A stretch of DNA of 60,097 nt, the filler included. It is 8 parts of 8 records of this genome, joined end to end, with 100 filler letters (N's around TTAATTAATTAA, not from the genome) between each part and the next. Parts side by side here need not be neighbours in the genome. Positions count along the whole stretch, not along the records: positions 9,260 to 17,092 come from SRR31147125_8899; 7 more parts are not named here. One strand, written 5' to 3'. A program made the translations under genes and the position numbers. Shown here one piece after another: positions 7,452 to 54,943 of this stretch (positions within the stretch are counted from its first letter, which is position 1; each line of letters opens with the position of its first letter). The notes under the pieces were generated by a model. The model was not told where the DNA came from. It was given only the letters and a program-made list of their open reading frames with translations, and made no database searches.

Positions 7452-7457
7452 AATGTT

Positions 7458-7497
7458 TATATGCATGGAGCGTTAAATCACGCGTTCCATGCATATA
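7458..7497 (+). terminator. Stem-loop downstream of the TPR gene, probable terminator
   Basis: TATATGCATGGA...TCCATGCATATA inverted repeat. Confidence 0.55.
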
Positions 7498-7554
7498 GAT
7501 TTTAGCCGGGGAAAGTCCGTTAAATAGATAACTATAATGATCACTAATTCTTAC

Positions 7555-7583
7555 TTGCACTCTATAAATATATTTTGTAAATT
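7555..7583 (+). promoter_or_regulatory. Sigma70-type promoter for the leuS leader
   Basis: TTGCAC (7555-7560), 17-nt spacer, TAAATT (7578-7583). Confidence 0.55.
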
Positions 7584-7613
7584 ATGCAGAACATTAAAAC
7601 TGTGTATGATAAA

Positions 7614-7676
7614 ATGAAATTAATATCTACAAAATTTCCTGCATTAAAAATCCACCTACTAAGCCTCTTGCTATAA
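7614..7676 (+). CDS. Leu-rich leader peptide MKLISTKFPALKIHLLSLLL (putative leuS attenuator peptide)
   Basis: 20 codons with 7 Leu, 5 of them in the last 6 codons (CTA CTA AGC CTC TTG CTA TAA). It lies directly upstream of a hairpin and leuS. Confidence 0.7.
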   Translation: MKLISTKFPALKIHLLSLLL

Positions 7677-7714
7677 CGGGCTTGAATGCCTGTAATCAGT
7701 ATCAGTCCGCTTTT
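7677..7714 (+). terminator. Putative attenuator terminator hairpin
   Basis: CGGGCT...CTG-TAAT-CAG...AGTCCG followed by CTTTT. The 5' arm can alternatively pair with AAGCCT (7661-7666). Confidence 0.55.
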
Positions 7715-7769
7715 ATTAATTAGTGAATAATAAAAAAAGTACTAAACAATGTAATTGAGGGATCAACAG

Positions 7770-9159
<1,390 letters not shown>

Positions 9160-9259
9160 NNNNNNNNNNNNNNNNNNNNNNNNNNNNNNNNNNNNNNNNN
9201 NNNTTAATTAATTAANNNNNNNNNNNNNNNNNNNNNNNNNNNNNNNNNNNNNNNNNNNN
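9160..9259. other. Artificial contig linker (N44-TTAATTAATTAA-N44)
   Basis: Six-frame stop cassette flanked by Ns. The same linker occurs at 17093-17192, 22496-22595, 29638-29737, 36861-36960, 45707-45806 and 54819-54918. Confidence 0.98.
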
Positions 9260-10163
9260 AAAAGATTTACATAAAGTAGATAAACAAAAAGATTTATCGA
9301 TGTATAGAGATAAAAAAGTATATAATCATGAACACAAGCATATTGAAATCGCTGCAAATATTGCACATCCTAAAGATGTCTTAGAAGCTCTTGAACAAGG
9401 TGCAGAAGCCATCGGTTTATTTCGCTCAGAGTTTTTATATATGGATAAAAAACATGCGCCGACAGAAGATGAACAATATCAAGATTACACCTATGTCCTA
9501 AGTAAAATGAAAGATAAGAAAGTTGTCATTAGAACATTGGACATCGGTGGGGATAAACACTTAGATTATTTAGCACTTGATCATGAAGAAAATCCATTTT
9601 TAGGAAAAAGGGCGATTAGACTATGTCTCGACCACGTTGATTTATTTAAAACACAAATTCGTGCTTTATTAAGAGCAAGTGTTCATGGCAATCTACATAT
9701 GATGATTCCAATGATTTCAACCATTGAAGAATTAAGAGAAACAAAAGCAATTATACAAGCGTGTGAAGAAGAACTCGAACATGAAAACATTGCATATCAA
9801 AAAGATTATAAATTAGGTATGATGATGGAAGTACCCGCTGCTTGTCTTAATGCAGATGAATTTGCAAAAGAAGTTGATTTCTTTTCTATTGGAACAAATG
9901 ATTTAATTCAATACACATTTGCAGCTGATCGAATGAATCCATCAGTTTCATATTTATATCTTCCAGATCACAAAGCGATTTCTAAACTTATTGAAATGGT
10001 TGTGAGAGCTGCGAAAAAACAAAATATATGGGTTGGTGTATGTGGCGAGATGGCATCTATGCCTAATCTAGCACAAAAACTTATGACACTTGGTGTTGAT
10101 GAATTAAGCATGCAAGCAACACATATCTTAAAGGTAAAACAGTTTTTATTTGACCATAAGTAG
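9260..10163 (+). CDS. ptsI: PTS enzyme I (phosphoenolpyruvate-protein phosphotransferase), C-terminal part
   Basis: IGLFRSEFLYM, RTLDIGGDK, EENPFLGKRAIR, DFFSIGTNDLIQY, GVCGEMA. 5' truncated. Confidence 0.95.
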
Positions 10164-10178
10164 AACTATATGATATAG

Positions 10179-10217
10179 AAAAAGACTGATATTCAAATTA
10201 AAATATCAGTCTTTTTT
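10179..10217. terminator. Bidirectional intrinsic terminator between ptsI and the ABC exporter
   Basis: AAAAAGACTGATATT...AATATCAGTCTTTTT inverted repeat between convergent genes. Confidence 0.85.
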
Positions 10218-10229
10218 ATTATGATTTAA

Positions 10230-11822
10230 TTAAAATGAAATGACTTGATCGAATAAATGATTTTCCAACTGATGATGTGAAATTAAGATGATAGTTTTAT
10301 TTTTTAATGATTGTAAGTGAGTGATTAGTTTTTCTTCTAATTGAATGTTTAATGCAGATGTGACTTCATCTAAACATATGATTGGTGCATCTTTGAGTAA
10401 GGTTCTTGCGATGGCTAGTCTTTGTATTTGTCCAATAGATAAACCAGAACCTTTTTCATTTAAATGAATATCTAATAGATCTAATCCATGTGATAGTTCA
10501 TCATATAGAGAAACATCTTTTAATGCTTGGATTAAGCGTTGATCATCATGTGTTTTAAATAGATTGAGATTATCTCTAATCGTGCCAGATAGTATCAAAT
10601 TATCTTGTGGGACATATGTGAAATAAGTACGTGTTTGTGATGAGATGTCATAGGTGCTATTTTTAGTCTTTAATACTAATTTTCCATGTGTAATGGGATA
10701 AAAACCTAAGAGTAGTTTCATCAGTGTAGATTTGCCGACACCCGAAGGACCTTTAAATAAAACTGAAGATTGACTTTTGATTGTAAATGATAGGTCATCA
10801 ATAACTTTATGTGTGTCATACTGAAATGAGATATGATTTGCTTCAATCTCAACGAAATCTTCTAATAAAGCCGTTAAGTCTTTTTCTAAAGGCATAGATT
10901 TTAATGTTTCTAATCGATCAATAGATGCCAGTGACTGCATATATTTAGGATACAATAAACTAAGACTACTAAAAGGAGATTGGAGATGTTGAATCAATTG
11001 AATCATGGCAATTAAATAACCTACACTTAAGCCAAATTGTAGTTGATAACCACCAAAGATAAGAGCAAATGCATAACCAAAAGCAAAAAATAAATTCATT
11101 CCACTAGATGTCACAAGTGATAACTTTACTTGTGATATTTTAGCATCATTGACATGTGATTGAAGAGTTGATTGTTTTTCTCTAAATGGTTGTTCTGCTT
11201 GAAATGCTTTAATCACTGATACGTTTTCGATTGATTCTTGCATATAACTTCTTAAATGATCTTTTTTTATTTGTAGGTTTTTATGTCTTGCTTTTATTTT
11301 TGGAGCAATCCATCGACTTAATATAAACAAAATGATCCCAAGTCCTAAAAATATCATAGAAAATGTAGGCTCAATGAGTAATAAAAGTATAAATGCACCC
11401 ATCATGCGCACAACATAAAAACATAATCTAGGAATGAGGAGTATCATTTGATTCGCAACAATTTCAATATCATTTTCTAAATGATTAAGTAATGTACCAC
11501 TATGATATGCAGATAAATCTGACATGTTAGCTTTTAATATATGATGATAATGATAAGCTCTTAAATGTTTAATGCTCGTATTCAAAAACTTTTGTGACAT
11601 ATACTTAAATAATGCTTGTAATAACATATTTAATAAAAGTAATATTGCTAGCATCACAGCAAAAAACACAAAAGATTGCATATTGGCACTCATGGCTTCA
11701 TCAATTAAATCTTTTGAGTAATATGCAAAAAAGAGTGCAAGCGTGCTTGCACATATATTAATCACTGATAGAATGATTATTTGTTTTAAATAGGGTTTAA
11801 TATATTTCAAATATAGTTTCAT
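10230..11822 (-). CDS. ABC exporter, fused permease plus ATPase (no C39 peptidase domain)
   Basis: N-terminal multi-TM domain, GPSGVGKST, LSIGQIQRLAIAR, ICLDEVTSAL. Confidence 0.9.
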   Translation of the reverse strand: MKLYLKYIKPYLKQIIILSVINICASTLALFFAYYSKDLIDEAMSANMQSFVFFAVMLAILLLLNMLLQALFKYMSQKFLNTSIKHLRAYHYHHILKANMSDLSAYHSGTLLNHLENDIEIVANQMILLIPRLCFYVVRMMGAFILLLLIEPTFSMIFLGLGIILFILSRWIAPKIKARHKNLQIKKDHLRSYMQESIENVSVIKAFQAEQPFREKQSTLQSHVNDAKISQVKLSLVTSSGMNLFFAFGYAFALIFGGYQLQFGLSVGYLIAMIQLIQHLQSPFSSLSLLYPKYMQSLASIDRLETLKSMPLEKDLTALLEDFVEIEANHISFQYDTHKVIDDLSFTIKSQSSVLFKGPSGVGKSTLMKLLLGFYPITHGKLVLKTKNSTYDISSQTRTYFTYVPQDNLILSGTIRDNLNLFKTHDDQRLIQALKDVSLYDELSHGLDLLDIHLNEKGSGLSIGQIQRLAIARTLLKDAPIICLDEVTSALNIQLEEKLITHLQSLKNKTIILISHHQLENHLFDQVISF

Positions 11823-11892
11823 CTCATCACCATTTCTATTTTATCATTTAAAATAAATATTTGATAAAGAAATTAAAACATCTAATTTTTAA

Positions 11893-11901
11893 TGATATAA
11901 T
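11893..11901 (+). promoter_or_regulatory. Extended -10 promoter of the kinase-PqqD-peptidase operon
   Basis: TG-A-TATAAT upstream of a GAGGTGA RBS. Confidence 0.55.
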
Positions 11902-11912
11902 GAAAAAAAGAG

Positions 11913-12743
11913 GTGATGACTTTGTTTTTAAAATACGTAAACATTATGGGACTATCCTTAGAGCTACATTATCAATATGAGAAATATTTCAAAAACAACA
12001 TCGAAAAATATGAAATCCCTTTTAAACCAGAACATATAGATTATCAAATCACCGTATCATACACTGATCATATTGATGCAAGCAAGTATAAAGATTTTGA
12101 AGTTTTTTCAAAAACTAAATCTGGTGATGTAAAGTCTGGCATCGCTATCCGTGATCGAAATTATATGATATATATGCTGAAAGATGCGTTTGAAGATGAA
12201 GCAGAAACTGAATACATTTATATGGGTATTGCATTTTTAAAAATTGCATTACATGAAAAAATGTTTCCACTTCATGCATCAACCATTCTTTATAAAAACG
12301 AAGCCATATGTTTTTCAGGACCATCTCAAACTGGTAAATCAACGCATACAAGTTTATGGACGAAACATATAAAAAATGCAGTTAAATTAAACGATGATAA
12401 AACCATGCTCACATTTGAAGATGATCATATTTATGCACATGGGATACCTTTTAGTGGATCAATGAGTATTAATATGAATAAAAAAGCTAATCTTAAAGCC
12501 ATTGTATTTTTGAAACAATCAAAAATCAATGTCATTAAACGTATGAAGCCAGAGGTTGCGACCATAGAACTTGCAAGAAATATTTATCAACCAACAGATG
12601 GACAAGCATGGCAATTCATCTTTACCCAAATAGAAAAGATAATTAACGAAGTACCTATTTATCTTTTACTCTGTGATATTAGTGAAGAAGCAGTCAATAA
12701 AGCATATGATGCGATTTATAAAGGAGAAGTTGATGAGAATTAA
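11913..12743 (+). CDS. HPr-kinase-like P-loop protein of PqqD-associated cassettes
   Basis: PLHASTI...AICFSGPSQTGKSTH...LNDDK...HGIPFSGS, i.e. His, Walker A and DD motifs of the HPrK fold. Start may be TTG 11922. Confidence 0.8.
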   Translation: MMTLFLKYVNIMGLSLELHYQYEKYFKNNIEKYEIPFKPEHIDYQITVSYTDHIDASKYKDFEVFSKTKSGDVKSGIAIRDRNYMIYMLKDAFEDEAETEYIYMGIAFLKIALHEKMFPLHASTILYKNEAICFSGPSQTGKSTHTSLWTKHIKNAVKLNDDKTMLTFEDDHIYAHGIPFSGSMSINMNKKANLKAIVFLKQSKINVIKRMKPEVATIELARNIYQPTDGQAWQFIFTQIEKIINEVPIYLLLCDISEEAVNKAYDAIYKGEVDEN

Positions 12744-12999
12744 AGAAGGATTTGTTGTGAGAAAAATCAATGATTTTTATGCAGTTGTACCGGTTAATAA
12801 AAAAGTATTAGATTTTAGTGGGATGATGACATTAAATGAATCAGGGAAAATGCTATATGATTTATTGCTAACAGATGTCAGCAAACAAACACTCATAGAC
12901 TTTATGTGTAAAACATATGATGTTAGTCAAGAAGTAGCAGAAAAAGATATTGATGCTTTTTTAAATAAATTAATATCACATCAATTGTTGATCAAATAG
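12733..12999 (+). CDS. PqqD-family protein (RiPP recognition element, RRE)
   Basis: AAGGAG RBS, ATG 12733, MRIKEGFVVRKI...LNESGKMLYDLL...YDVSQEVAEKDIDAFLNKL, 88 aa. Confidence 0.9.
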   Translation: MRIKEGFVVRKINDFYAVVPVNKKVLDFSGMMTLNESGKMLYDLLLTDVSKQTLIDFMCKTYDVSQEVAEKDIDAFLNKLISHQLLIK

Positions 13000-13007
13000 G
13001 GGGAGTT

Positions 13008-13411
13008 ATGAAGAAAGTGATTGTATCCAATCATGAGATGTTTGATTTAATTATCAAACAACTCAATGATTCAGGTCTGGTTCATTTTAGTGTAAAAGGT
13101 GATTCAATGCGTCCTTTTTTTCAAAATGATCGTACAATGGTCACAGTTAAAAAGTTTGACACATATGAAAAAGGCGATGTCGTCTTATTTAAATATAACG
13201 ATCAAGTGTTACTTCATCGTATTATTAAAATAAAAGGTGATCGATATATTATTCAAGGTGATGCTGCATATCGAAAAGAATACGCAATGCTTCATGATAT
13301 ATATGGTAAGGTTGTATTGTTTGCACCACCAGTAAAAGATTATGAAAAAAAGCAAAATGGTGGGTTTTCTTTAGACCTTTTAAAAGATTATTAATAAAAT
13401 TTATAAAATAG
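13008..13411 (+). CDS. S24/S26-family serine peptidase (signal-peptidase-like), probable frameshift in the A run near 13346-13351
   Basis: VKGDSMRPFF (catalytic Ser), GDVVLF, LLHRI, IQGD. An alternate-frame tail KAKWWVFFRPFKRLLIKFIK* ends at 13411. Confidence 0.8.
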
Positions 13412-13443
13412 CGCTTACATGTAATGTTTGTGCTAAATTCAAT

Positions 13444-13473
13444 AAAATAACCTTGCGAGAGGTTATTTTTTTT
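13444..13473 (+). terminator. Intrinsic terminator after the peptidase gene
   Basis: AAAATAACCT-TGCGAG-AGGTTATTTT followed by a T run. Confidence 0.75.
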
Positions 13474-13522
13474 GATATTATCAACACATAGGGCAGATTT
13501 ATAGAAAGAGGGATAAGTAAAT

Positions 13523-13651
13523 ATGGAAAAACAAGTAATTAAGCAAGACTATGTCGTGCCTTCAATTGATATTGTTGAATTTCAATTAGAGGATTCTATT
13601 GCAGCATCTGGAGAATCAAGTGGAGCAGCATTCTGGGAAGAATGGGACTAA
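13523..13651 (+). CDS. 42-aa putative RiPP-type precursor peptide MEKQVIKQDYVVPSIDIVEFQLEDSIAASGESSGAAFWEEWD (not in the ORF track)
   Basis: AGAGGG RBS, ATG 13523, TAA 13649-13651. YxxPxI leader motif, adjacent to the PqqD, kinase and peptidase genes. Confidence 0.8.
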   Translation: MEKQVIKQDYVVPSIDIVEFQLEDSIAASGESSGAAFWEEWD

Positions 13652-13655
13652 ACAC

Positions 13656-16163
13656 ATGAAAATGAAAAAGTTAATACTAGGAATATTTTTAAGTTTAGGA
13701 CTGTTCATGGCATCTATTGGATTATTTCCAAATGTATATGCTGCACATGTTGGGAATAACTATGATGTTGAAGTAACCATCGTTTATGGTGATGGACCCA
13801 GTGATTTTGTGAGTGCGAACTTATCAAATAAGGGTTATGGTTCAGCTGTAAGTGTTGATTTTGGGTCTTGGTTAAACACAAATTCATTTGCATACTATAT
13901 TGTAAATGGTGAAGTGATTACGAATCAAGGTGAAATGTTTCGCGTAAAAAGTGATTTAAATATTATTGCTGTCGTGCAACCTGCAGGAGAAAATGTCGCA
14001 GTGTTTATCGATAGTAATGGTAAATATTTAGGTGTTGATTATGTGGTAAATGGTGGTACACCAGTAGCACCAGATATATCAGAGTTATCTAAACCAGGAT
14101 ATTCAGTAGATAGTGAAAATCCATGGTCACCTGCCATATCAACATTATCAGGAAATCAAATATATGAAGTACAATATGCATTAGATGCAGCTGACACATT
14201 TAGTGCATCTGCAACAAATGCAAGTCTATCTAATGAAAATCCAGTATTTAATGAAATTGTCACAGCAACAGCTGTGGGGACATCGGGATATTGGTTAGAC
14301 AATAATGTAAAAATAGCATATGGTTTAACATATGAATTCTCTGCATTAAGTGATCGAGACATAGAATATGTTGAAAGTGCAGAAGCAGAAGAAGCACTAG
14401 TTAGCATACATGATGTTTCAGGTATTAGAGACGGTTATGAATCTTATTTAGGTCAAGTTTATGTACCAGATGGTTATGAACTGATTGAATGGGGATTCTT
14501 ATTTGATAGTGAAGAAGAAGCATTAACACTTGATAATGCTGAAGTAGTTAAACCAAGTTCAGCATTAGCTGGCACCAATGAGTTCTTAAGATCAGTAGAA
14601 TCAGGTTTATATACATCAATTAGAGCATATGCAACAGTTGATAATGGATCTAGTTTAGAAACGATTTATAGTGATGTTAATGTGTTTGTTGCGAGTTCAG
14701 GAGCAAGTGATTTATTTATATCAGAGGTATTGGACTGGAATGGTGGAACTAATAAAGCAATTGAGTTATACAATGGTACAAACTCACCAATTAATCTAAG
14801 TGATTATAGCATTAAAGTAAATGCAAATGATAACACAACATGGACGAATACCACACCAAATCCATTACCTGATATTGATTTGAATGCAGGACAAACTTAT
14901 GTGTTGACAAATGCTAGCGAGTCTTCAATCACAGCATTATCAGATTCTACAACTACTGCATCGTTCAATGGAGATGATGCGATTGGATTATTTAAAAATG
15001 ATGTTCTAATTGATATATTTGGTGTATTTGGAGAAGATCCAGGTTCAGGTTGGGCTATAAACGGTGGTAACACTGCTGATGTATCAATTATCAGAAATGC
15101 ATCTGTGACTGGTCCTTATGTTAATAATGATGCAGATCCGATGTGGGAGCAAAATGAATGGACAGCTACTTCTAACACAGTTGATAATCTAAGTTCTCAT
15201 ACAATGGAATCAGGTTCAACCTCATCAAGTCTAAAATTAATATCTACTATTAAAACTGAAGTGGAATCAGATTTAAATGCACCTAGTGTTACATTAGATA
15301 TCGATAGTGATTATACATTACCAGATACTAATCTTTATGGTTCATCAGTATCTTGGTCAGTATTATCAGGTTCTAGTTACATAGATAATGCAGGTGTCGT
15401 TTCAAGACCAGCATATGGTGTTGGAGATCAAGAGGCAACACTTCAATATACAATTAGTGTTGGTGGAGAAGATGTTGTTGGAACAATTACATTAAATATC
15501 TTAGAAGAAGAGCAAACATTTACAGTATCATTTGATGCAAATGGTGGAGATGCAAATCCTGATCCGCAAGTTGTTGTAGCTGGTGAATTTGCAAGTCAAC
15601 CAACAACACCAACAAATGATGGTTATGTACTTACTGGTTGGTTTGATGCTGCTAGTGGCGGTAATGAATGGGATTTTGCAAATGATCCTGTATCAGGCGA
15701 TATGACGCTTTATGCTCAATGGAACCAAGCTTCAGAAGATAAAGAAGCAACTCTTACATATGGTACAAACAAATATACAAATTCCGCATCTGCTACAATT
15801 GATGATACAGTTGATTTTGCAATATCGAGTGGTGGAATTCTAAGTGCATCTTCAATAACTTTCTCAAAAGCATACTGGGTATATTCGGCTACTGATGGTG
15901 GTAACACAATGCGTTTAGGAAGTTCTAGCACAGATGGGTCAATTACATATAATTTTAACGCATCGGTTACCGTAACAAGTGTTATTGTTACAGCGTTGGA
16001 ATATGATAGTGGAGCGTCACTAACAATTGGTACGACTACTCTAAGTTTAACTGATACAGCTGCAGATTACACTTTTGATATTGTTGATGGTTCAAGCTTT
16101 ACAATTGAAGGCAATGATAGAGTTCAAATAGTTAGCGTAACAGTTATATATTTGGGGGAGTAA
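13656..16163 (+). CDS. Large secreted/surface protein with lamin-tail domain and InlB B-repeat-like domain; probably N-terminal part of an extracellular nuclease
   Basis: Signal peptide MKMKKLILGIF...VYA, LTD motif DLFISEV...NKAIELYNGT...INLSDY, B-repeat FTVSFDANGG...GWF...TLYAQW. Confidence 0.8.
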   Translation: MKMKKLILGIFLSLGLFMASIGLFPNVYAAHVGNNYDVEVTIVYGDGPSDFVSANLSNKGYGSAVSVDFGSWLNTNSFAYYIVNGEVITNQGEMFRVKSDLNIIAVVQPAGENVAVFIDSNGKYLGVDYVVNGGTPVAPDISELSKPGYSVDSENPWSPAISTLSGNQIYEVQYALDAADTFSASATNASLSNENPVFNEIVTATAVGTSGYWLDNNVKIAYGLTYEFSALSDRDIEYVESAEAEEALVSIHDVSGIRDGYESYLGQVYVPDGYELIEWGFLFDSEEEALTLDNAEVVKPSSALAGTNEFLRSVESGLYTSIRAYATVDNGSSLETIYSDVNVFVASSGASDLFISEVLDWNGGTNKAIELYNGTNSPINLSDYSIKVNANDNTTWTNTTPNPLPDIDLNAGQTYVLTNASESSITALSDSTTTASFNGDDAIGLFKNDVLIDIFGVFGEDPGSGWAINGGNTADVSIIRNASVTGPYVNNDADPMWEQNEWTATSNTVDNLSSHTMESGSTSSSLKLISTIKTEVESDLNAPSVTLDIDSDYTLPDTNLYGSSVSWSVLSGSSYIDNAGVVSRPAYGVGDQEATLQYTISVGGEDVVGTITLNILEEEQTFTVSFDANGGDANPDPQVVVAGEFASQPTTPTNDGYVLTGWFDAASGGNEWDFANDPVSGDMTLYAQWNQASEDKEATLTYGTNKYTNSASATIDDTVDFAISSGGILSASSITFSKAYWVYSATDGGNTMRLGSSSTDGSITYNFNASVTVTSVIVTALEYDSGASLTIGTTTLSLTDTAADYTFDIVDGSSFTIEGNDRVQIVSVTVIYLGE

Positions 16164-17092
16164 CGACCCCTACTGAAGATACTACTTCACCTATACTTTC
16201 AATTACACCTTCGGAAACGGAGGTGTATGTTTCCGTAGGGGAATCATGGTCATTGCCGAGTGTGTCGGCAACTGATGACGTCGATGGTGACATCTCAGAG
16301 TTTGTAACTCTTGATGATGATAATTACGACTTAAACACAACAGGAACATATACACTCATTTGGAGTGTATCAGATACTGCAGGGAATGCTGCAACTTTAT
16401 CATTAACACTAAATGTGTATGACAATAATGGTGGAAATAATGATACTTTTTATTCTGAAGATTCATATTATAGTTCATTAAATGGACTATCAGGAACTAG
16501 TTTAGAAGATGCATTATATACGCTTATTAATAATACAGGCACTTATACAACAACGACGTACGGAGAAGCTAGAGATTATTTAGCAATATCCGATGTGTTA
16601 ACTACAGATAATACTAAACTTGATATGATTTATTCAACCACTTTATCTTCTGGAACATACGCTACTGCTTCATGGGATAGTGGAGCAACTTGGAATAGAG
16701 AACATGTATGGGCTAAATCACTGCTAGGCAGTGGTTATACTGTTGATAATGGTGATAGAGGTATTGCTGCTGATCTTCATAACTTAAGAGCAGCAGATAC
16801 TGGTATAAATTCATCACGTGGTAATAAATTATTTTCCGCATCAACCTCACTTCTTGGCACGTATGGCGATGATGGTAGTGGTAGATGGTATCCAGGAGAT
16901 AGTTATATTGGAGATGTCGCAAGAATCATTTTCTATATGGATATCAGATGGGGAAGTGAAACGTCGATATCGAGTATTGGTACGCTTCAAACATTTATAT
17001 CTTGGGCGTCAACTGATACTGTCGATACATTTGAAGAAAATAGAAATGATGTGATATACTCATATCAAGGAAATAGAAATCCATTTATTGAT
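16160..17092 (+). CDS. Ig-like (DUF5011-type) domain plus endonuclease I domain; likely continuous with the upstream ORF across a G-run frameshift; 3' truncated
   Basis: ATDDVDGD...GTYTL..SVSDTAGN, WNREHVWAKS, DLHNLR, NSSRGN, GDVARIIFYM, QGNRNPFID. Confidence 0.85.
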
Positions 17093-17192
17093 NNNNNNNN
17101 NNNNNNNNNNNNNNNNNNNNNNNNNNNNNNNNNNNNTTAATTAATTAANNNNNNNNNNNNNNNNNNNNNNNNNNNNNNNNNNNNNNNNNNNN

Positions 17193-19655
17193 TTTATCTA
17201 TATCAGCTTGTGACATTTGACCACCGCTTGAGGCGTCTACTGGAGCTGCTGCCACAGCTTCCGTCGCTCCAGCTAAAGTTTCTTCTCCAATGTTTAAGCT
17301 TTCGTCCTCTACATCAACATCAGAATCTTCAGCAGGCTCATCTTCAAGCTCATCAGCGATTTCCGCTAACATCTCATCACTAAGGTTTAAGCCACTAGCG
17401 ATTTCCTCATCCGAAATCTCTTCTGCTTCATCATCTAAATCATCGGCAATTCCAGAAAGCATTTCATCACTTAAATCAAGTCCGCCAGCTCCAAGTTCTT
17501 CGGAAGCTAATTCTTCTTCTAATTCCTCCACAGGAATTTCCTCTATTGAGTTTTCTGGTGAATCAAAAGATGATTCCTCTTCTAGTGATTCTTCAAATTC
17601 TTCCTCTTCAATAATTTCTTCTGAACTGTCATCAAAACTCTCTTCAACCACAGCACTCTCGTCCAACAGATCCTCCATAACATCTTCCATCATATCTTCA
17701 TCCATTGTATCAACAAACTCAGAAGGTAAGTCATCTTGGATATCTGTCATTACTTCCTCTTCAACTTTCTCCTCTACTTTTTCTTCACTTACAACTGCTG
17801 ATTTATATGTTTGGAATACTACTCTATATTTCTCATTGATCATATTATCCCCAGAAGTAATAATCCTAGGCATATCATCTATACCCTCTAAGAACAATTT
17901 CGAATTCCTATAAGTTACTGAAAATGTATCATCAAACGGTTCTAGAGAAACGTCTAATCCTTCATTTGCTAAATATACCGTTTGAAGCTGTTTTAACATT
18001 ACATATTTAGATGACAAAAAGTTATGGAACGAGTCTTCAGCAATACATTCTGGATTACTTTTATCCTCAAAAGGTTCCAAAGAGAACATCTGGTCACCCT
18101 TATCTGCTATTCTATATGTAAAAGCATGTCCTAGGTTTAATTCATATATTTTATCATTAAACAAATTCACTTCTTTAAATGATTTTCTTCCATCACCATT
18201 AATAAATGACATATTATAAATTAAATCTGAATTTATATCGTTTTCATTCTCTTGTTTAGAACCATTCTGTATGTTTCCATTCTCTGTTTGTACTAATACA
18301 TGTTTTCCCATTGCAACATATTGAGAGTTAATTCTTATATCATTAAGCCTGCTACGTCCGATATTTATCTCTTTTTTTCTAAATATTACAAATGTTTGTT
18401 TTGTTTCAATGTTTTCTATTTCAAGCTTAAATTCACCTTTAATCTCATATGAGTTTTGAAGAGATTCATGTTTATTTTGTAAAAGTTTTTTCAATGCTTC
18501 TGCAAAACTTACTTCCAGTGTGTTACATCTCTTAATATGTGCTTCAAGTTGAAACAGTTTTTCTCCAACAGAGGCAGTTTCAAGCGTGTCACACACCTCA
18601 TTTAAGAACGCTATTACATCCTCTTCTGTATGTTCATTGATAAGTCTCTCTATTAAATATACTTTATCAACATACTCCCTATTAGGTAAAACATCATCAA
18701 ATAAAAAGTTAAACTGTGCTTCAGCATAAACTTCATTATATTTTGCAAAACTTTTATTTAATTTAGACATAATTCCTTTTATTGCTTCATTTTTTGAATC
18801 AGAATGAAGAAGACTAATATATTTTTCCCCAAACTTCTTTACTTGCTCATAATCAGTATATTCAATGTCATTCTCTAAAAATGATATTATTAAATTTGCT
18901 GTAAAAAATTGATTTATTATACTTGCATATTCATTAAAAGCCTTTGTATTAAAATAAGATATATACTTAAGTGTTGTTTTAATATCTTTCTTGCTAGCTT
19001 TTTTTAACTTTTCTTCATTTAAAACCCACTCTTCAGCGGAATTAACACTCTGTCTGAATTTACTTCTTATCTCAGTATCTAAAGCTCTTACTAATTTACT
19101 AGCAGATGAGAAATTCTTTTTATACTCACTTCTAGCTTGATTAACTGAGGAAAAGTTTATGTCCATAAATTTCTTATAAGAATCATAAGCTTTTTCATTG
19201 TCTTTCAATTTTATTCTATAAGTTGAGGCGTGATTATGTCTTATTGCTTCTAATGCTTCTATCCCTTGCTCCAATAAAAATATTTCATTTTTTTCAAATG
19301 TTTCCTTTAATTCAAGGTTATTTTTTACATATTCTTCAAGAACTTTCTTATATTTCTCTTTTTGGATATCAATTCCTTTTCTTGCTCTTTTATCTTTCTT
19401 TTTACTTCTATAATAAGCAAAATAATAGTAACCCAAAGCTTCCTGTATTCCCTTTATCTTTTTGACAAAAGGACTGCTAGCAGTAAGCTTGTTTATTATT
19501 TTATCACCCTTTTTTATATTTTTAAGGACTGTTTCTGAAGAAATCAATTCAAGGGACTTCATAAGCCAGTTTTTACTATTTTGTTCATTATTATTCAAAT
19601 CCTCAGCTTTTTTTCGTATTTCTACTAAGGAGTGTATTACCTTTTCCTCTTCCAT
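17193..19655 (-). CDS. FHA-domain protein with helical N-terminus and long acidic disordered tail (3' truncated)
   Basis: EINIGRSRLNDIRINSQYVAMGKH FHA-like motif and an E/D-rich C-terminal ~190 aa. Confidence 0.6.
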
Positions 19656-19707
19656 CTTATCCCCCTATCCGAAAGTATGTATTTTCAAAATAAGTATTCT
19701 GTTGTAA

Positions 19708-22284
19708 TTACTCTTCTTCTATATCCTCTATCATGATTACTTCTGATTCTACTATCTCTTCTTCGGTTGCTTCTTTACTTTTTTCTTTGATTTCTTCTTT
19801 TACTCCAGCAAGATCAAGCCACCTCTTTGCTTCATTAAGGTCTCTTTTTACTCCATATCCATTTTTATAAAGTTCAGCCACCTTTATTTGAGCTTCTTTA
19901 AATCCCGCTTCTGCTGCTTGTTCAAACCAATTGAACGCTAATTGATAGTTTTGCTCAATGCCTATACCATCAAAATTCATCTCTCCAAGTTTATAGCAAG
20001 CTTCTAAGTTTCCAGCATTAAATGCTTTTTTAAACCACTTCAAAGCCTCTTTCAAGTCTTGGCTAAAGCCATTTCCGTTATAATAAAGCATCCCAATATT
20101 ATATAGTGCTTTATCACTACCCTGATCTCCAGCTTTTTGATAAAGTTCATAAGCTATATCAAAATCTCTCTCCGTACCATAGCCATTTTCATACATTCTA
20201 GCTAAATTGTTATGTGCCGGTGTATAACCTGCGTCTGATGCTGACTCGTACAGTGTAAAGGCCATATTATGATTTTGGTTCACACCTTCCCCTAGTTCGT
20301 ATAACTTTGCAAGGTTATTTTGAGCAGGCGTATACGCTTTATCTGATGCTTTTTTATACCATTTGAAAGCCTCTTCATAGTTTAACTCTATTCCTTCACC
20401 AGTTTGATATGCTACCCCCAAATTATTCATTGCATTGGCATTTCCATTAAGTGCCGCAGCTCTATACCATTCAACTGATTTTTGCTCATCTTTAATTACG
20501 CCTAAACCATTACGATACATATAAGCTAAATTAACTTGAGCAGAACTGCTTCCATTTTCAGCTGCTTTCTTATACCATTTAACGGCTTCTTTGAAATTCT
20601 CTTTTAGGCCCAAACCATTCTTATACATATATCCAAGATTATTTTGAGCTTCACTATTTCCCTCTTTTTCTGCTTTTCTATAATATTTAAGCGCTTTTCT
20701 ATAACTTTGCTCTACCCCTAGGCCATCTCTATAGATAGTTCCCAGGTTATTTTCAGCAGGTGAGTAGTCTTGTTCAGCTGCTTTTTCATACCAAAATATC
20801 GCATTTTCATAATCTTCAGATAGTTTATATAGATTTCCTAATTCATTGTAAGCTGGTAAATCATTATAACTTGCCGCATTCTCAAGTAAATTCTGAGCTT
20901 CCACTAAATCCTGGTCAAAGAAAATTCCTTTTTTATACATGTATGCCATACGTACCTCTGCTTTTGCAGATCCTTTATTAATTAACTCCTGGTAAATTTC
21001 AACTGCTTCGTTATATTCACCTTTTTTGAAAAGTCGTTCAGCTTTCTTAAAGTCAGCTCTTGTTTCATTTTCTAAATTAGCTTTAAATTTAATAATATTT
21101 GTTTCAAAATATTCGTCTATCTCCTCTATATCAACATCAACATATGATTTTTCTAAATTTTCACAAAACTCCTTAATTGTATCTTCTAACAACCTAGCTT
21201 TTATTGTCTCAACCTGTGCCTCTATAAGCTCAATAACCTCGGATAGATGTGTATTATATTGTTTTTTAGTATTTGTTAAGCTCATAGCTCTGGCTATACA
21301 GTTTTTTATCTGATTTTCCGTAAGTCCTTTATCTTTTCCTATTAAAAATAGTTCTTTCTCAAGAGCTTCAGATAAGATATCCTCCGTTAATTCAGGGATG
21401 ATAATATCCTCTATAAATGATTCCAACCTGAACTCCATCAACAGTTCAGCAAAACTTCTAAACCTATCTTCACCTTTTTTCTCTAAACATCTACTTATTA
21501 TTTTCCAGTGCTTCTCAGAAACACCTTCAAATTTTTCTGGTGCTTCATTTAATATTCTATATTTTATCTCACCAAATGCAAATGGTACCTCGCCAGACAA
21601 TGTTTCATACAGCATAACTCCATATGAATAAATATCTGTTGCAAAAGCAAGCTCTTTATTCTCCAACTGCTCTGGACTCATATATTTTAATGTCCCGGCG
21701 AACTGTTGCTCCTCATCACTACCTATTACTTGAGCAACACCAAAATCGAGGAGTTTTATGCTTCCATCTTTTTTTAGCATTATGTTTTCACTTTTCAAAT
21801 CCCTATGAATAATCCCTTTAGAATGGGCATATTCCATCGCTTTAGCTATATCTATAAATATCCTATCTACATCTCCTGTGGCTAACTTTTCGTTCTCAGC
21901 GATATGTTTTTCCAGAGTTTCTCCCTCTATATACTCCATTAATATAAAAGGAGGCTCTCCTGCCTCAGCTTTATTAAATCCTAAAACTTTTACAATATTT
22001 TCATCGTCAAAAATTTCAAGTTTTCTTACTTCTTTCTCCAGCAAATCAGAAAGCTTAGAATTTTTAATTACCTTCACACAGTAAAAAACCTCTTCACTCC
22101 TATGTAAATCCTGGACTAAAAAGACCATCCCTAAGCCACCTTCACCAAGCTTTTCGATTATTCTATATCTTCCATTCAGTTTACTTCCAACCAAATCTTC
22201 TTTTGCAAGGTCAAATTTTTCACCATACAAATTGTCTGCCATAAACAAGGTATTCCCTAATATTGTTTGCTGCATATCCGGCAT
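19708..22284 (-). CDS. Hanks-type Ser/Thr protein kinase with SEL1-like repeats
   Basis: LGEGGLGMV, VKVI, HRDLKSEN, DFG, GTLKYMSPEQ and about ten SEL1 units (AQNNLGYMYKNGLG). GGAGG RBS. Confidence 0.92.
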   Translation of the reverse strand: MPDMQQTILGNTLFMADNLYGEKFDLAKEDLVGSKLNGRYRIIEKLGEGGLGMVFLVQDLHRSEEVFYCVKVIKNSKLSDLLEKEVRKLEIFDDENIVKVLGFNKAEAGEPPFILMEYIEGETLEKHIAENEKLATGDVDRIFIDIAKAMEYAHSKGIIHRDLKSENIMLKKDGSIKLLDFGVAQVIGSDEEQQFAGTLKYMSPEQLENKELAFATDIYSYGVMLYETLSGEVPFAFGEIKYRILNEAPEKFEGVSEKHWKIISRCLEKKGEDRFRSFAELLMEFRLESFIEDIIIPELTEDILSEALEKELFLIGKDKGLTENQIKNCIARAMSLTNTKKQYNTHLSEVIELIEAQVETIKARLLEDTIKEFCENLEKSYVDVDIEEIDEYFETNIIKFKANLENETRADFKKAERLFKKGEYNEAVEIYQELINKGSAKAEVRMAYMYKKGIFFDQDLVEAQNLLENAASYNDLPAYNELGNLYKLSEDYENAIFWYEKAAEQDYSPAENNLGTIYRDGLGVEQSYRKALKYYRKAEKEGNSEAQNNLGYMYKNGLGLKENFKEAVKWYKKAAENGSSSAQVNLAYMYRNGLGVIKDEQKSVEWYRAAALNGNANAMNNLGVAYQTGEGIELNYEEAFKWYKKASDKAYTPAQNNLAKLYELGEGVNQNHNMAFTLYESASDAGYTPAHNNLARMYENGYGTERDFDIAYELYQKAGDQGSDKALYNIGMLYYNGNGFSQDLKEALKWFKKAFNAGNLEACYKLGEMNFDGIGIEQNYQLAFNWFEQAAEAGFKEAQIKVAELYKNGYGVKRDLNEAKRWLDLAGVKEEIKEKSKEATEEEIVESEVIMIEDIEEE

Positions 22285-22595
22285 CTCAGCACCTCCCTGT
22301 TTTTATCGTAGATTATTAATCATAAATATAATTAAGCCAAAGCCTTTTCACTAATTTTAACATATTTTACTTGGAAAATCACTAATAAATGAAAAAGCAC
22401 TACCTATTTTCTCCTATAGAATAAACGAAAGTATTTTTTTATAAATTTAGAAAACTTTTTCAAGAAATTTTAAGCAATTAAGATTCTCGATTTTTNNNNN
22501 NNNNNNNNNNNNNNNNNNNNNNNNNNNNNNNNNNNNNNNTTAATTAATTAANNNNNNNNNNNNNNNNNNNNNNNNNNNNNNNNNNNNNNNNNNNN

Positions 22596-29637: not shown

Positions 29638-29737
29638 NNNNNNNNNNNNNNNNNNNNNNNNNNNNNNNNNNNNNNNNNNNNTTAATTAATTAANNNNNNN
29701 NNNNNNNNNNNNNNNNNNNNNNNNNNNNNNNNNNNNN

Positions 29738-36801: not shown

Positions 36802-36960
36802 CAGTCTCGAACTCCTGTATACTATTAGACAGGAAATTGTAGAAATTATCAATGAGAATTNNNNNNNNNNNNNNNNNNNNNNNNNNNNNNNNNNNNNNNN
36901 NNNNTTAATTAATTAANNNNNNNNNNNNNNNNNNNNNNNNNNNNNNNNNNNNNNNNNNNN

Positions 36961-45678: not shown

Positions 45679-45971
45679 ATTACACCCAATCATCAAAATA
45701 TTTTTTNNNNNNNNNNNNNNNNNNNNNNNNNNNNNNNNNNNNNNNNNNNNTTAATTAATTAANNNNNNNNNNNNNNNNNNNNNNNNNNNNNNNNNNNNNN
45801 NNNNNNACAATAGCAGGACAAAATCATTCCCGACCATTCTGAAATGGCAAAACAGCAATACATTAAAGAATCTAATCAACCCCCTATAACTCAAAATCAA
45901 TTTCAATTTCTTCAACTTGAAACAAATATGTTATCTTCGCAGGTAATATTTGACTATGAATTGAAATTGGC

Positions 45972-54803: not shown

Positions 54804-54943
54804 GCTAAACGTTCTTAANNNNNNNNNNNNNNNNNNNNNNNNNNNNNNNNNNNNNNNNNNNNTTAATTAATTAANNNNNNNNNNNNNNNNNNNNNNNNNN
54901 NNNNNNNNNNNNNNNNNNAATGTACTATACATTACAGACACTT

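What the first reader, a model, noticed from the sequence alone, without database searches (positions are those of the whole stretch)
13523..13651. Unannotated 42-aa precursor-like peptide with YxxP leader and Ser/Trp/acidic core
The ORF is below the track's size cutoff but has a good RBS. It reads MEKQVIKQD-YVVPSI-DIVEFQLEDSIAAS-GESSGAAFWEEWD. YxxPx(L/I) followed by a beta-strand-like segment matches the RRE-binding leader motif known from lasso precursors. Small residues at IAAS/G suggest a signal-peptidase-like cut. The putative core has Ser acceptors and a W-E-E-W-D end. It lacks the penultimate leader Thr typical of lasso peptides.
Basis: partly seen in the sequence, partly recalled or inferred. 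Interest (0 to 1): 0.8.

Follow-up and report, generated by a model that had tools for sequence, protein, structure and literature searches.

The report
Hidden precursor of a phosphopeptide-type RiPP
The 42-codon gene is real and conserved: it encodes the substrate peptide of a small neighbouring peptide-tailoring gene set, a divergent relative of the "linear polyphosphorylated peptide" systems first described in 2026.

Summary
The ORF at 13523..13651 (+) exists as described, with a GAGGG ribosome-binding site 10 nt upstream. An ORF this short is not significant by itself; conservation makes it real. A profile of the peptide hits this frame alone in the window (E 1e-14; next best E 2). It finds relatives in 17 of 80 related loci, in 47 of 151 genomes of the nearest order sampled, and in 1921 cluster representatives of a 1.84-billion-protein library. 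Y10 and P13 never vary, indels are in frame, and dN/dS is 0.10-0.59.

The flanking genes are an MsbA-like ABC exporter, a ScmC-family protein with the PEPCK/HPr-kinase fold, an 88-residue PqqD-type leader-binding protein and a cytoplasmic SipW-like Ser/His peptidase. This is the LppD/K/B/S/A gene set of the LPP family (Popov et al. 2026, PMC13381572), without its nucleotidyltransferase and without lasso genes.

The leader differs from the published one. The Px9Fx[T/A] motif occurs in 0 of 149 relatives, which instead share E-D-[IVS]-I-[TA]-x-S. The core is very short, acidic and Trp-rich.

Verdict: a genuine unannotated precursor and a new variant of a known kind. The chemistry (probably phosphorylation of Ser29, with a cut 2-4 residues before it) is inferred, not shown.

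The parts
10230..11822 (-). ABC exporter (permease plus ATPase, 530 aa), MsbA-like, with no N-terminal peptidase domain. It is the counterpart of LppD and is transcribed divergently from the tailoring genes.
   Evidence: Pfam ABC_membrane E 1.4e-29 and ABC_tran E 3.9e-26. The best NCBIfam hit is MsbA_lipidA at E 4.6e-59, below its cutoff. An ABC gene sits near the ScmC-type gene in 29 of 81 sources. The L114 homologue is 53% identical and in the same position.
11913..12743 (+). ScmC-family P-loop protein (276 aa) with the PEPCK/HPr-kinase fold. Presumed peptide kinase, counterpart of LppK.
   Evidence: Relatives carry PF27840, which the Atlas names ScmC. NCBIfam ScmC matches at E 1.6e-5, below its cutoff. 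There is no hit in the local Pfam copy. Invariant residues in 23 sequences include S138, G141, K142, T144, H145, N160, D161 and D162. The AlphaFold2 model has pLDDT 93.3. Foldseek gives ATP-PEPCK at E about 1e-9 and HprK/P at 4e-5.
12733..12999 (+). PqqD-type RiPP recognition element, probably 88 aa starting at M21 of the ORF that opens at 12673. Counterpart of LppB.
   Evidence: Pfam PqqD E 5.1e-12, above the gathering score. The family profile hits TbiB1 at 2e-8, PbaB1 at 6.7e-7, TfuB1 at 1.1e-6 and LppB (9x8z_B) at 3e-6. N55, Y82, D92 and F96 are invariant in 20 of 20 sequences. They align with LppB N33, Y60, D70 and F74, the residues that hold the YxxP motif (alignment; paper section 8). 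Relatives start at the internal Met.
13008..13394 (+). Cytoplasmic S24/S26 (SipW-like) serine peptidase of 128 aa as assembled. Counterpart of the leader peptidase LppS. Its true end is probably 13411.
   Evidence: Pfam Peptidase_S24 E 2.4e-10, above the gathering score. NCBIfam archaeal-type signal peptidase I matches at E 9.8e-10, below its cutoff. G31, S33, M34, P36, H70, R71, G84, D85 and E91 are invariant in 19 sequences. The profile hits signal peptidase I (4nv4, 4.9e-4) and SEC11C (7p2q, 1.7e-3). Contigs of 3 of 3 other runs carry one more A in the A-run at 13345-13351. That frame reads a basic/hydrophobic tail like the one in relatives.
13444..13476 (+). AT-rich hairpin followed by a run of eight T, between the peptidase gene and the precursor gene. 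Possibly a leaky terminator or attenuator.
   Evidence: The fold of 13395-13530 gives MFE -25.3 kcal/mol and z -2.76, with 0 of 200 shuffles folding as well. The consensus terminator scan did not call it because it has too few G-C pairs. A promoter-like TTGCGA-17-TATTAT at 13453-13481 overlaps it. The region has no more promoter-like matches than shuffled sequence (15 found against a mean of 16.6).
13508..13512 (+). Shine-Dalgarno core GAGGG, 10 nt before the ATG.
   Evidence: Read. Nearly the same string precedes the homologous ORF in L114.
13523..13651 (+). Precursor peptide gene (42 codons plus stop), counterpart of LppA.
13550..13567 (+). Y10-V-V-P13-S-I15, the RRE-binding motif of the leader.
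   Evidence: Y and P are invariant in 22 of 22 and in 32 of 32 distinct relatives. The first position is Y in 148 and F in 1 of 149 library representatives, and P is present in 149 of 149. Binding itself is inferred from the LppB-LppA crystal structure and mutants.
13589..13609 (+). E23-D-S-I-A-A-S29: the conserved end of the leader, the cleavage region and the probable phospho-acceptor Ser29 (13607-13609).
   Evidence: Among 149 representatives, counting from P: E at +10 in 127, D at +11 in 124, I at +13 in 138, T or A at +14 in 139, S at +16 in 140. The roles are inferred by analogy with F-E-T|x-x-S of LppA.
13610..13648 (+). Variable core G30-D42 (GESSGAAFWEEWD), acidic and Trp-rich. The mature peptide probably also keeps 2-4 residues before it.
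   Evidence: Cores differ between relatives while leaders are conserved. A G-A-x-aromatic-aromatic-x-E-x-aromatic/I-W sub-family recurs in L106/L114, L001, L005, L004, L090, L111, P0134, P0135 and P0170.
13656..16163 (+). Secreted surface protein (835 aa from the ATG at 13656): signal peptide, lamin-tail domain, atrophied Ig domain and a Listeria-Bacteroides repeat. It starts 4 nt after the precursor's stop codon. Membership of the system is not shown.
   Evidence: Pfam LTD E 3.4e-16, Flg_new E 2.2e-17, aBig_2 E 8.4e-11. A homologous large secreted protein follows the precursor within a few nt in L114, L001, L004, L005, L037 and L052.
16223..17092 (+). Ig-like domain plus Endonuclease I protein, cut off by the contig end. 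It is syntenic with the cluster in relatives. Membership of the system is not shown.
   Evidence: Pfam Endonuclease_1 E 5.3e-26. The L114 homologue is 58% identical and in the same position.

Best explanation
The ORF encodes the precursor of a ribosomally made, post-translationally modified peptide. It is processed by the genes beside it, in the way shown for linear polyphosphorylated peptides (LPP).

Proposed steps:
1. The 42-residue precursor is translated.
2. The 88-residue PqqD-type protein grips the leader through Y10-x-x-P13-x-I15 and the beta-strand that follows.
3. The ScmC-family protein with the HPr-kinase/PEPCK fold uses ATP to phosphorylate, perhaps repeatedly, the nearly invariant Ser29.
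4. The cytoplasmic SipW-like Ser/His peptidase, helped by the PqqD protein, removes the leader a few residues before Ser29. The best guess is after A27, the second after S25.
5. The MsbA-like ABC pump exports a roughly 15-residue acidic, Trp-rich phosphopeptide.

Shown here: the gene is real and under purifying selection, the leader is conserved over a variable core, the five parts co-occur, and the leader-contact and catalytic residues are conserved. Inferred by analogy: binding, phosphorylation, the cut site and export. The biological role is unknown. The gene is tightly joined to a secreted lamin-tail-domain surface protein and an endonuclease I gene, which hints at a cell-surface or extracellular-DNA context.
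For: The gene is real.
- The profile hit is unique in the window (E 1.1e-14 against a next best of E 2).
- Database relatives are 90% and 84% identical, one of them with an in-frame 2-residue insertion.
- 20 frames match in 18 of 81 sources, plus 12 further loci among 33 fetched later.
- 47 of 151 genomes of the order sampled have a match.
- 1921 library representatives match at E <= 0.001.
- dN/dS is 0.10-0.59 in 8 pairs; 2 more pairs were saturated in dS. Against the syntenic L114 it is 0.36.
- Strain variants in three other studies are V12A or V12S, D16E and one synonymous change, with no frame break.

The machinery matches.
- S33, H70 and D85 are invariant in the peptidase.
- RRE residues N55, Y82, D92 and F96 are invariant and align with LppB N33, Y60, D70 and F74.
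- Of 81 sources, 64 have PqqD and 50 have the S24 peptidase next to the ScmC-type gene.
- The whole order ABC(-)/ScmC/PqqD/S24/peptide/surface protein/endonuclease is kept in L114 at 45-63% identity, and the peptide is the most conserved part at 63%.

The mechanism has a precedent. LppK phosphorylates Ser3 of the core, LppS cuts only with LppB present, and the Y and P of the leader are needed for binding (PMC13381572, sections read).
Against: - The published LPP precursor motif Px9Fx[T/A] is absent: 0 of 149 library relatives have it, and the window has E-D-S at those positions.
- The conserved Ser lies 16 residues after P, not 15. Only 7 of 149 have Ser at the LPP spacing.
- The P-loop protein belongs to Pfam ScmC and did not match Hpr_kinase_C in the local Pfam scan. 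No ScmC-family member is shown in what I read to be a kinase.
- The RRE profile is no closer to LppB (3e-6) than to the lasso B1 proteins TbiB1 (2e-8) or PbaB1 (6.7e-7).
- LppN, listed among the conserved LPP genes, has no homologue in the 60-kb window (best tblastn E 1.0).
- The peptidase gene as assembled lacks the conserved C-terminal tail. This could be an assembly error or a real defect.
- There is no expression or mass-spectrometry evidence for this organism.
Confidence: 0.72

Rival explanations
1. Same precursor and same helper proteins, but different chemistry. The ScmC-family protein is not a Ser kinase. It performs another ATP-dependent step, or only activates the peptide transiently for cleavage. 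On this reading the family is a RiPP class of its own rather than an LPP.
For: The Pfam family is ScmC, not Hpr_kinase_C. The same family occurs with radical-SAM/SPASM enzymes in L003 and in the SynChlorMet cassette (NCBIfam name). The leader tail differs from LPP in 149 of 149 relatives. The RRE is not specifically LppB-like.
Against: The Walker A motif and an N-D-D motif are invariant, and the fold is that of PEPCK/HprK phosphotransferases. The gene set otherwise equals LppK/B/S/D/A. A nearly invariant Ser next to the leader end (140 of 149) mirrors the phosphorylated Ser of LppA.
Confidence: 0.17
2. A lasso-peptide precursor whose cyclase and B2 protease are encoded elsewhere in the genome.
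For: The leader has the lasso-type YxxPx[I/L] motif, and the PqqD protein scores with NCBIfam lasso PqqD models (E 6.8e-7 and 4.8e-6, both below cutoff). The contig is only 7.8 kb and no whole genome is held.
Against: No cyclase or B2 gene lies in the contig. The Transglut_core3 (B2) family is found in 0 of 4 related genomes that carry the peptide. Their Asn_synthase hits are single genes of about 530 aa; in G189 the gene lies 1.17 Mb from the cluster. No Asn-synthase-like gene is among the gene clusters conserved around the 81 sources, though only the larger clusters were annotated. There is no penultimate Thr. A dedicated serine peptidase takes the protease's place.
Confidence: 0.03
3. A regulatory upstream ORF or leader peptide for the surface-protein gene that starts 4 nt downstream. 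It is translated but not a tailored product.
For: The tight coupling to the downstream gene is kept in seven Acholeplasmatales-type loci. A hairpin with a T-run lies just upstream.
Against: In Clostridia the homologous peptides lie directly upstream of the ScmC-type gene instead, for example in L011, L013, L019, L051, L073 and L077. Selection acts on the amino-acid sequence, and on exactly the residues an RRE contacts. A uORF would not need an invariant YxxP.
Confidence: 0.04
4. A chance ORF in AT-rich intergenic DNA.
For: ORFs of this size are common here: 107 of at least 30 aa in 15 kb.
Against: All the conservation evidence above.
Confidence: 0.01

Closest known systems
Linear polyphosphorylated peptides (LPP): lppA-K-B-S-D-N of Paenibacillus alginolyticus DSM5050 (Popov et al., Nat Commun 2026, PMC13381572). 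I read the outline and sections 4, 6-9, 11, 12, 16 and 35. The supplements are closed.
   Same: The gene set is the same: a small precursor, a P-loop protein with the HPr-kinase fold, a discrete PqqD-type RRE, a cytoplasmic SipW-like Ser/His peptidase and an MsbA-like exporter, with no cyclase. The leader carries Tyr-type YxxPx[V/I/L]. The RRE keeps the Asn, Tyr, Asp and Phe that hold that motif. A conserved Ser follows the leader end. The core is variable.
   Different: The leader tail is E-D-[IVS]-I-[TA]-x-S rather than x-I-x-F-E-T-x-x-S, and the Ser lies one residue further from Pro. The core is about 13-17 residues rather than 45. There is no LppN in this cluster or in L114, although relatives L001, L004, L005 and L007 have one. 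The P-loop protein is of the Pfam ScmC family. The hosts are Acholeplasmatales-like bacteria and Clostridia, neither of which appears in the paper's main text (0 occurrences). The neighbours are a surface protein and a nuclease rather than capsule genes.
Phosphorylated lasso peptides of Firmicutes (paeninodin; pseudomycoidin). I read passages of the review PMC8498205.
   Same: A [Y/W]xxP leader is read by a discrete PqqD-type B1 protein. An HPr-kinase homologue phosphorylates a Ser of the precursor before leader removal. An ABC exporter is present, and some relatives have a nucleotidyltransferase.
   Different: There is no macrolactam cyclase and no cysteine protease B2. Paeninodin-type leaders use Trp and these use Tyr. 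The paeninodin kinase targets the C-terminal Ser, whereas the window peptide ends in Asp.
SynChlorMet (Scm) cassette. Known here only as NCBIfam and Pfam names (ScmC, TIGR04249 / PF27840); its other members are recalled, not tested.
   Same: The P-loop protein belongs to the ScmC family and is paired with a PqqD-type protein.
   Different: No radical-SAM/SPASM enzyme is in this cluster; one is present in L003. The precursor has no Cys. The NCBIfam ScmC score of 24.4 bits is far below the 125-bit cutoff.

Membership tests
LPP (Popov et al. 2026) | A discrete PqqD-type RRE is encoded in the cluster. | tested here: met
   PF05402 E 5.1e-12, above the gathering score. The profile hits the lasso and LPP RRE structures at 2e-8 to 3e-6.
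LPP (Popov et al. 2026) | The RRE residues that fix the Tyr-type YxxP motif are present (LppB N33, Y60, D70, F74). | tested here: met
   Window N55, Y82, D92 and F96 are invariant in 20 of 20 sequences. They align with chain 9x8z_B residues N51, Y78, D88 and F92, which is the paper's numbering plus 18 (paper section 8).
LPP (Popov et al. 2026) | The RRE belongs to the monophyletic LppB clade. | tested here: inconclusive
   The profile scores LppB (3e-6) no better than TbiB1 (2e-8), PbaB1 (6.7e-7) or TfuB1 (1.1e-6). No tree could be built because the paper's RRE set was not available.
LPP (Popov et al. 2026) | An archaeal/SipW-type signal-peptidase-like leader peptidase with catalytic Ser, His and Asp. 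| tested here: met
   S33, H70 and D85 are invariant in 19 sequences. Pfam S24 scores above the gathering score. NCBIfam sigpep_I_arch matches at E 9.8e-10, below its cutoff. PDB hits are signal peptidase I and SEC11C. Equivalence to LppS S29/H68/D93 rests on residue order and spacing, not on an alignment with LppS.
LPP (Popov et al. 2026) | An HprK-like kinase is present. | tested here: inconclusive
   The fold and the Walker A motif fit. The Pfam family is ScmC with no Hpr_kinase_C hit.
LPP (Popov et al. 2026) | A Ser near the start of the core is polyphosphorylated. | not testable with these tools
   This needs mass spectrometry. Only the conserved Ser (140 of 149) can be shown.
LPP (Popov et al. 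2026) | An MsbA-like ABC exporter is present. | tested here: met
LPP (Popov et al. 2026) | An NTP transferase (LppN, Pfam NTP_transf_5) is present. | tested here: not met
   There is no homologue in the 60-kb window (tblastn best E 1.0) and no gene between the peptidase and the peptide in L114. It is present in L001 (E 1.9e-42). In the paper, deleting lppN did not change the products seen.
LPP (Popov et al. 2026) | The precursor leader carries YxxPx[V/L/I]. | tested here: met
   Y10-V-V-P13-S-I15. Y and P are invariant in 32 of 32 relatives.
LPP (Popov et al. 2026) | The precursor motif Px9Fx[T/A] (YxxPxVLxHQxIxFETxxS) is present. | tested here: not met
   0 of 149 library relatives have it. 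In the window, the positions after Px9 read E-D-S.
LPP (Popov et al. 2026) | No macrolactam synthetase or B2 protease belongs to the cluster. | tested here: met
   All ORFs of 100 aa or more in the contig are assigned to other functions. The B2 family is found in 0 of 4 related genomes.
Lasso peptides | An Asn-synthetase-like cyclase and a transglutaminase-like B2 protease are present, with a penultimate leader Thr. | tested here: not met
   The residue before any plausible cut is not preceded by Thr in the window peptide. The window's own whole genome is not held.
SynChlorMet cassette | ScmC is accompanied by radical-SAM/SPASM enzymes ScmE and ScmF (recalled from the NCBIfam naming). | tested here: not met
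   There is no radical-SAM gene in the contig. The ScmC model scores 24.4 bits against a 125-bit cutoff.

The most novel reading that the evidence does not exclude
The roughly 1,900 or more precursor clusters sharing the leader Y-x-x-P-E-[IL]-E-[IV]-x-x-F-x-x-E-D-[IVS]-I-[TA]-x-S define a separate, unnamed RiPP class of Clostridia and Acholeplasmatales. Its ScmC-type enzyme does something other than, or beyond, simple Ser phosphorylation. In wall-less Acholeplasmatales its very short Trp/acidic product works together with the lamin-tail-domain surface protein and endonuclease I whose genes are translationally coupled to it. It could be, for example, a secreted signal or a ligand that controls extracellular DNA capture.
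Probability: 0.15. Interest if true: 0.75.

Novelty: new variant of a known kind. Interest (0 to 1): 0.45.

Why it matters
LPP-type peptides were described only in 2026, from one Paenibacillus cluster. Their final structures and roles are unknown. This window shows a stripped-down four-enzyme version, without a nucleotidyltransferase, in an Acholeplasmatales-like bacterium. Its core is short enough to synthesise chemically. It also shows that the underlying precursor family is very large (1921 cluster representatives) and that its 10 tested members match no model in the NCBIfam and Pfam copies searched here. These genes are therefore routinely missed by annotation. The conserved coupling to a secreted surface protein and a nuclease gives a concrete starting point for asking what such peptides do.

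Tried and rejected
- Complex prediction of the PqqD protein, the peptidase and the peptide gave no verdict. The score was 0.75, but a control with the peptidase replaced scored 0.70. It is not used as evidence either way.
- The scan of metagenome contigs with the ScmC-type protein found no relative.
- Sequencing runs: no RNA holder was listed, so nothing can be said on expression.
- PDB searches with the peptide and with its family profile found no meaningful match. The LppA leader chain was not retrieved.
- NCBIfam and Pfam gave no family for the window peptide or for 10 relatives.
- Earlier findings by place and by sequence returned nothing.
- I looked for large proteins carrying the leader at their N-terminus as possible substrates in loci without a small precursor. 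No long ORF scored; the one long frame in L007 is an upstream extension of a small ORF.
- 63 of 80 loci have no detected precursor within the fetched flanks. It may be diverged, distant or absent.
- The lasso reading was rejected.
- The literature searches found only PMC13381572 for this gene set, and nothing on RiPPs in Acholeplasma.
- The paper's Supplementary Data 1 and 2, which list the peptidase homologues and their hosts, could not be opened. They may already contain members of this branch.
- I could not fix the cleavage site from sequence. After S25 keeps LppA's spacing from Pro. After A27 puts the conserved [T/A] at -1 as in LppA. After S29 fits the generic -3/-1 rule.
Full report
**Observation.** The window is not one molecule. 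It contains seven pairs of 44-N runs that split it into eight pieces, and the finding lies on the piece 9260..17092. A GAGGG core sits 10 nt before the ATG. An ORF of 42 codons means little in 35.6% GC DNA: 107 ORFs of 30 aa or more overlap 7000..22000. Everything therefore rests on conservation and context.

**Neighbours.** On the same contig and strand, directly upstream, lie three genes:
- A 276-aa protein at 11913..12743 with no hit in the local Pfam copy and a weak NCBIfam ScmC hit (E 1.6e-5, below cutoff).
- A PqqD-family protein (PF05402, E 5e-12).
- A 128-aa S24/S26-type serine peptidase with no membrane segment.

Divergently transcribed upstream is a 530-aa MsbA-like ABC exporter. Downstream come a secreted lamin-tail-domain surface protein and an endonuclease I protein.

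**Is the small gene real?** The evidence is as follows.
- The word-indexed protein search found two relatives among two candidates. One is 90% identical (42 aa). The other is 84% identical (44 aa) with an in-frame two-residue insertion in the core.
- The 276-aa protein has 201 relatives at E <= 0.001 among 499 candidates.
- With an alignment of 23 of these relatives, I fetched 80 genomic loci.
- Iterated profile search of all ORFs in those loci plus the window contig found the peptide family in 18 of 81 sources, as 20 frames. All have E <= 4e-9 in the unfiltered search, and the next best is 0.07.
- A search with the peptidase profile fetched 30 loci, and the peptide search fetched 3; 17 of these 33 had a peptide, 12 of them new.
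- In the order around the closest complete genome, 47 of 151 sampled genomes have a match at E <= 0.001, and some have up to five.
- Against 1.84 billion cluster representatives, the profile finds 1921 proteins at E <= 0.001. Of the best 150, 149 are proteins of 30-72 aa.
- Within the window the profile hits only this frame (E 1.1e-14; next best E 2 among 2285 frames).

**Selection.** Y10 and P13 are invariant in 22 of 22 aligned sequences and in 32 of 32 distinct relatives. Pairwise Nei-Gojobori estimates gave dN/dS of 0.10, 0.11, 0.17, 0.25, 0.30, 0.31, 0.35 and 0.59 in eight pairs. Two further pairs were saturated at synonymous sites. All gaps are whole codons. Against the syntenic homologue in L114, dN/dS is 0.36.

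I also laid contigs of three runs from three other studies, plus one run with a small share of the words. The ORF is intact in them, with V12A or V12S, D16E and one synonymous change. Those are the same substitutions seen in the two database relatives. In those runs several short contigs share the leader region. They diverge just before the start codon and at 13608/13612, continuing in frame into a different core that keeps a G-A-A-F-aromatic-acidic motif (tables 3, 7 and 8). This looks like additional precursor alleles or copies.

**The machinery.**
- In the 81 sources, the ScmC-type gene is accompanied by a PqqD gene in 64, the small S24 peptidase in 50 and an ABC exporter in 29.
- The P-loop protein's relatives carry PF27840, which the Atlas names ScmC.
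- Its AlphaFold2 model (pLDDT 93.3) matches ATP-dependent PEP carboxykinases (E about 1e-9) and HPr kinase/phosphorylase (4e-5).
- A Walker A motif (S138, G141, K142, T144) and N160-D161-D162 are invariant.
- The peptidase keeps S33, H70 and D85 in all 19 aligned sequences. Its profile hits signal peptidase I and SEC11C.
- The PqqD profile hits the four lasso or LPP leader-binding proteins with solved structures: TbiB1 at 2e-8, PbaB1 at 6.7e-7, TfuB1 at 1.1e-6 and LppB at 3e-6.

**What it is.** A word search of this scan's earlier notes pointed to Popov et al., Nat Commun 2026 (PMC13381572). I read its outline and sections 4, 6-9, 11, 12, 16 and 35. That paper defines "linear polyphosphorylated peptides". 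Their clusters encode:
- a precursor LppA;
- an HprK-like kinase LppK;
- a discrete RRE LppB;
- a SipW-like peptidase LppS;
- an MsbA-like pump LppD;
- an NTP transferase LppN.

They have no lasso cyclase. In B. subtilis, LppK puts up to four phosphates on Ser3 of the core. LppS (S29, H68, D93) cuts after Thr-1, and only with LppB present. LppB holds Y-16 and P-13 of the leader through N33, Y60, D70 and F74 in the crystal structure 9x8z.

The window's gene set is D(-), K, B, S, A. The pairwise alignment of the window's PqqD protein with chain 9x8z_B places the family-invariant N55, Y82, D92 and F96 on the chain's N51, Y78, D88 and F92. That is the paper's numbering plus an 18-residue tag; Cys57 matches the paper's C39 with the same offset. 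The leader-gripping residues are therefore conserved. The Tyr-type motif fits as well: the paper shows that LPP leaders use Tyr whereas paeninodin-type lasso leaders use Trp, and this family has Y in 148 and F in 1 of 149.

**Where it departs from the published family.**
- *Leader tail.* The published precursor motif is YxxPxVLxHQxIxFETxxS, searched for as Px9Fx[T/A]. None of 149 library relatives has it. This family's consensus is Y-x-x-P-E-[ILV]-E-[IV]-x-x-F-x-x-E-D-[IVS]-I-[TA]-x-S. Ser lies 16 residues after Pro in 140 of 149, and at the LPP spacing of 15 in only 7.
- *Nucleotidyltransferase.* The window has no LppN homologue, and neither does the syntenic cluster in L114. L001 has an NTP_transf_5 gene between the peptidase and the peptide, and genes of the same BLAST cluster and size sit there in L004, L005 and L007.
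- *P-loop protein.* It is of the ScmC family, and I could not compare it with LppK itself.
- *RRE.* It is no closer to LppB than to lasso B1 proteins.
- *Core.* It is very short, 13 residues after Ser29, against 45 in LppA.
- *Hosts.* By record title they are Acholeplasmataceae, "Tenericutes", Peloplasma and many Clostridia. None of these names occurs in the paper's main text.

I therefore file it as working like an LPP and as a divergent branch of that kind, not as a plain member.

**Cut site and acceptor.** The near-invariant Ser (S29 here) is the counterpart of the conserved, phosphorylated Ser of LppA. It is the only Ser or Thr after the leader in some relatives, for example P0133. That argues it stays in the product. 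Three cuts are conceivable:
- After S25, which keeps the same distance from Pro as in LppA.
- After A27, which puts the [T/A] conserved in 139 of 149 at -1 as in LppA, with a mostly hydrophobic -3.

I favour A27, then S25. Sequence alone cannot decide.

**Not a lasso peptide.** The contig holds no cyclase or B2 gene. In four related genomes that carry the peptide, the B2 family (PF13471) has no match in any. The Asn_synthase matches are single genes of about 530 aa; in G189 the gene lies 1.17 Mb from the cluster.

**Context.** In the complete genome behind L114, the order ABC(-)/ScmC/PqqD/S24/peptide/surface protein/endonuclease I is the same as in the window. Identities are 53, 45, 48, 52, 63, 51 and 58%, so the peptide is the best conserved part. 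In the window the surface-protein gene starts 4 nt after the peptide's stop codon. By my reading of the ORF coordinates, the gap is 1-8 nt in L114, L001, L004, L005, L037 and L052. An AT-rich hairpin with a T8 run lies between the peptidase gene and the precursor. The precursor may thus be transcribed with the surface-protein and nuclease genes rather than with its enzymes. In Clostridia the precursor instead sits just upstream of the ScmC-type gene, often beside SLH-domain or other large secreted proteins and envelope-polysaccharide genes. Popov et al. likewise found LPP clusters inside capsule loci and speculated about biofilm roles. The function remains unknown.

**Assembly caveat.** All three other runs that cover the site have one more A in the A-run at 13345-13351. 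In that frame the peptidase ends with KKAKWWVFFRPFKRLLIKFIK (stop at 13409-13411). This matches the basic, hydrophobic tail of all relatives. The window's version is either a homopolymer error or a strain with an altered peptidase tail.

**Verdict.** The gene is a genuine, unannotated RiPP precursor. The system is a new variant of the recently described LPP kind, and its chemistry is inferred rather than shown.

Noticed in passing
window 9160-9259, 17093-17192, 22496-22595, 29638-29737, 36861-36960, 45707-45806, 54819-54918: The window is eight contigs joined by spacers (44 N, 12 bases, 44 N). Genes on either side of a spacer are not neighbours. ORFs that run into a spacer (leuS-like at 7755.., endonuclease I at 16223.., the 836-aa ORF at 17145..) are truncated.
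   Followed up: yes
window 13345-13351: The run of 7 A near the 3' end of the S24 peptidase gene has 8 A in contigs of 3 of 3 other runs. The 8-A frame restores the basic/hydrophobic C-terminal tail conserved in relatives, with the stop at 13409-13411. This is either an assembly error or a real frameshift.
   Followed up: yes
window 13521 and 13608-13612: In three other metagenome studies, several short contigs share the leader-coding stretch but diverge before the start codon and after codon 29-30, into a different in-frame core. This suggests extra precursor copies or alleles in related strains. The window itself has one copy.
   Followed up: partly
window 13649-13658; L114, L001, L004, L005, L037, L052: The precursor's stop codon and the start of a large secreted LTD / Listeria-Bacteroides-repeat protein are only 1-8 nt apart in seven Acholeplasmatales-type loci. 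An endonuclease I gene follows in the window, L114, L001 and L037. A functional link is possible but untested.
   Followed up: partly
L007 1196-1333 and 8958-9095: One locus carries two precursor genes about 7.6 kb apart. Their C-terminal 34 residues differ at a single position (A/E), their N-termini differ, and the synonymous differences are saturated. Each is followed by a paralogous surface-protein gene.
   Followed up: no
L003 4974-6002: A radical-SAM/SPASM gene lies directly upstream of the ScmC-type gene in this Bacilli MAG. It links the kinase/RRE/peptidase core to SynChlorMet-like cassettes.
   Followed up: no
P0124 (library protein, 2241 aa): The best-scoring hit of the peptide profile is a very long repetitive protein with 15 matched stretches. 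This is probably low-complexity similarity to the core part of the profile.
   Followed up: no
63 of the 80 loci L001-L080: Most loci with the ScmC/PqqD/S24 trio have no detectable precursor within the fetched flanks. Many instead have a gene for a protein of 800-1200 aa directly upstream of the ScmC-type gene (for example L028, L040, L041, L048 and L049).
   Followed up: partly
window 19708-22284 (-) and 17145-19655 (-): On the next contig lie an 858-aa protein and an 836-aa protein. The first has an N-terminal stretch that looks like a Ser/Thr protein kinase (the motif is recalled, not tested) followed by many Sel1-like repeats. The second has an extremely acidic C-terminal third. Both were seen only in translation.
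   Followed up: no
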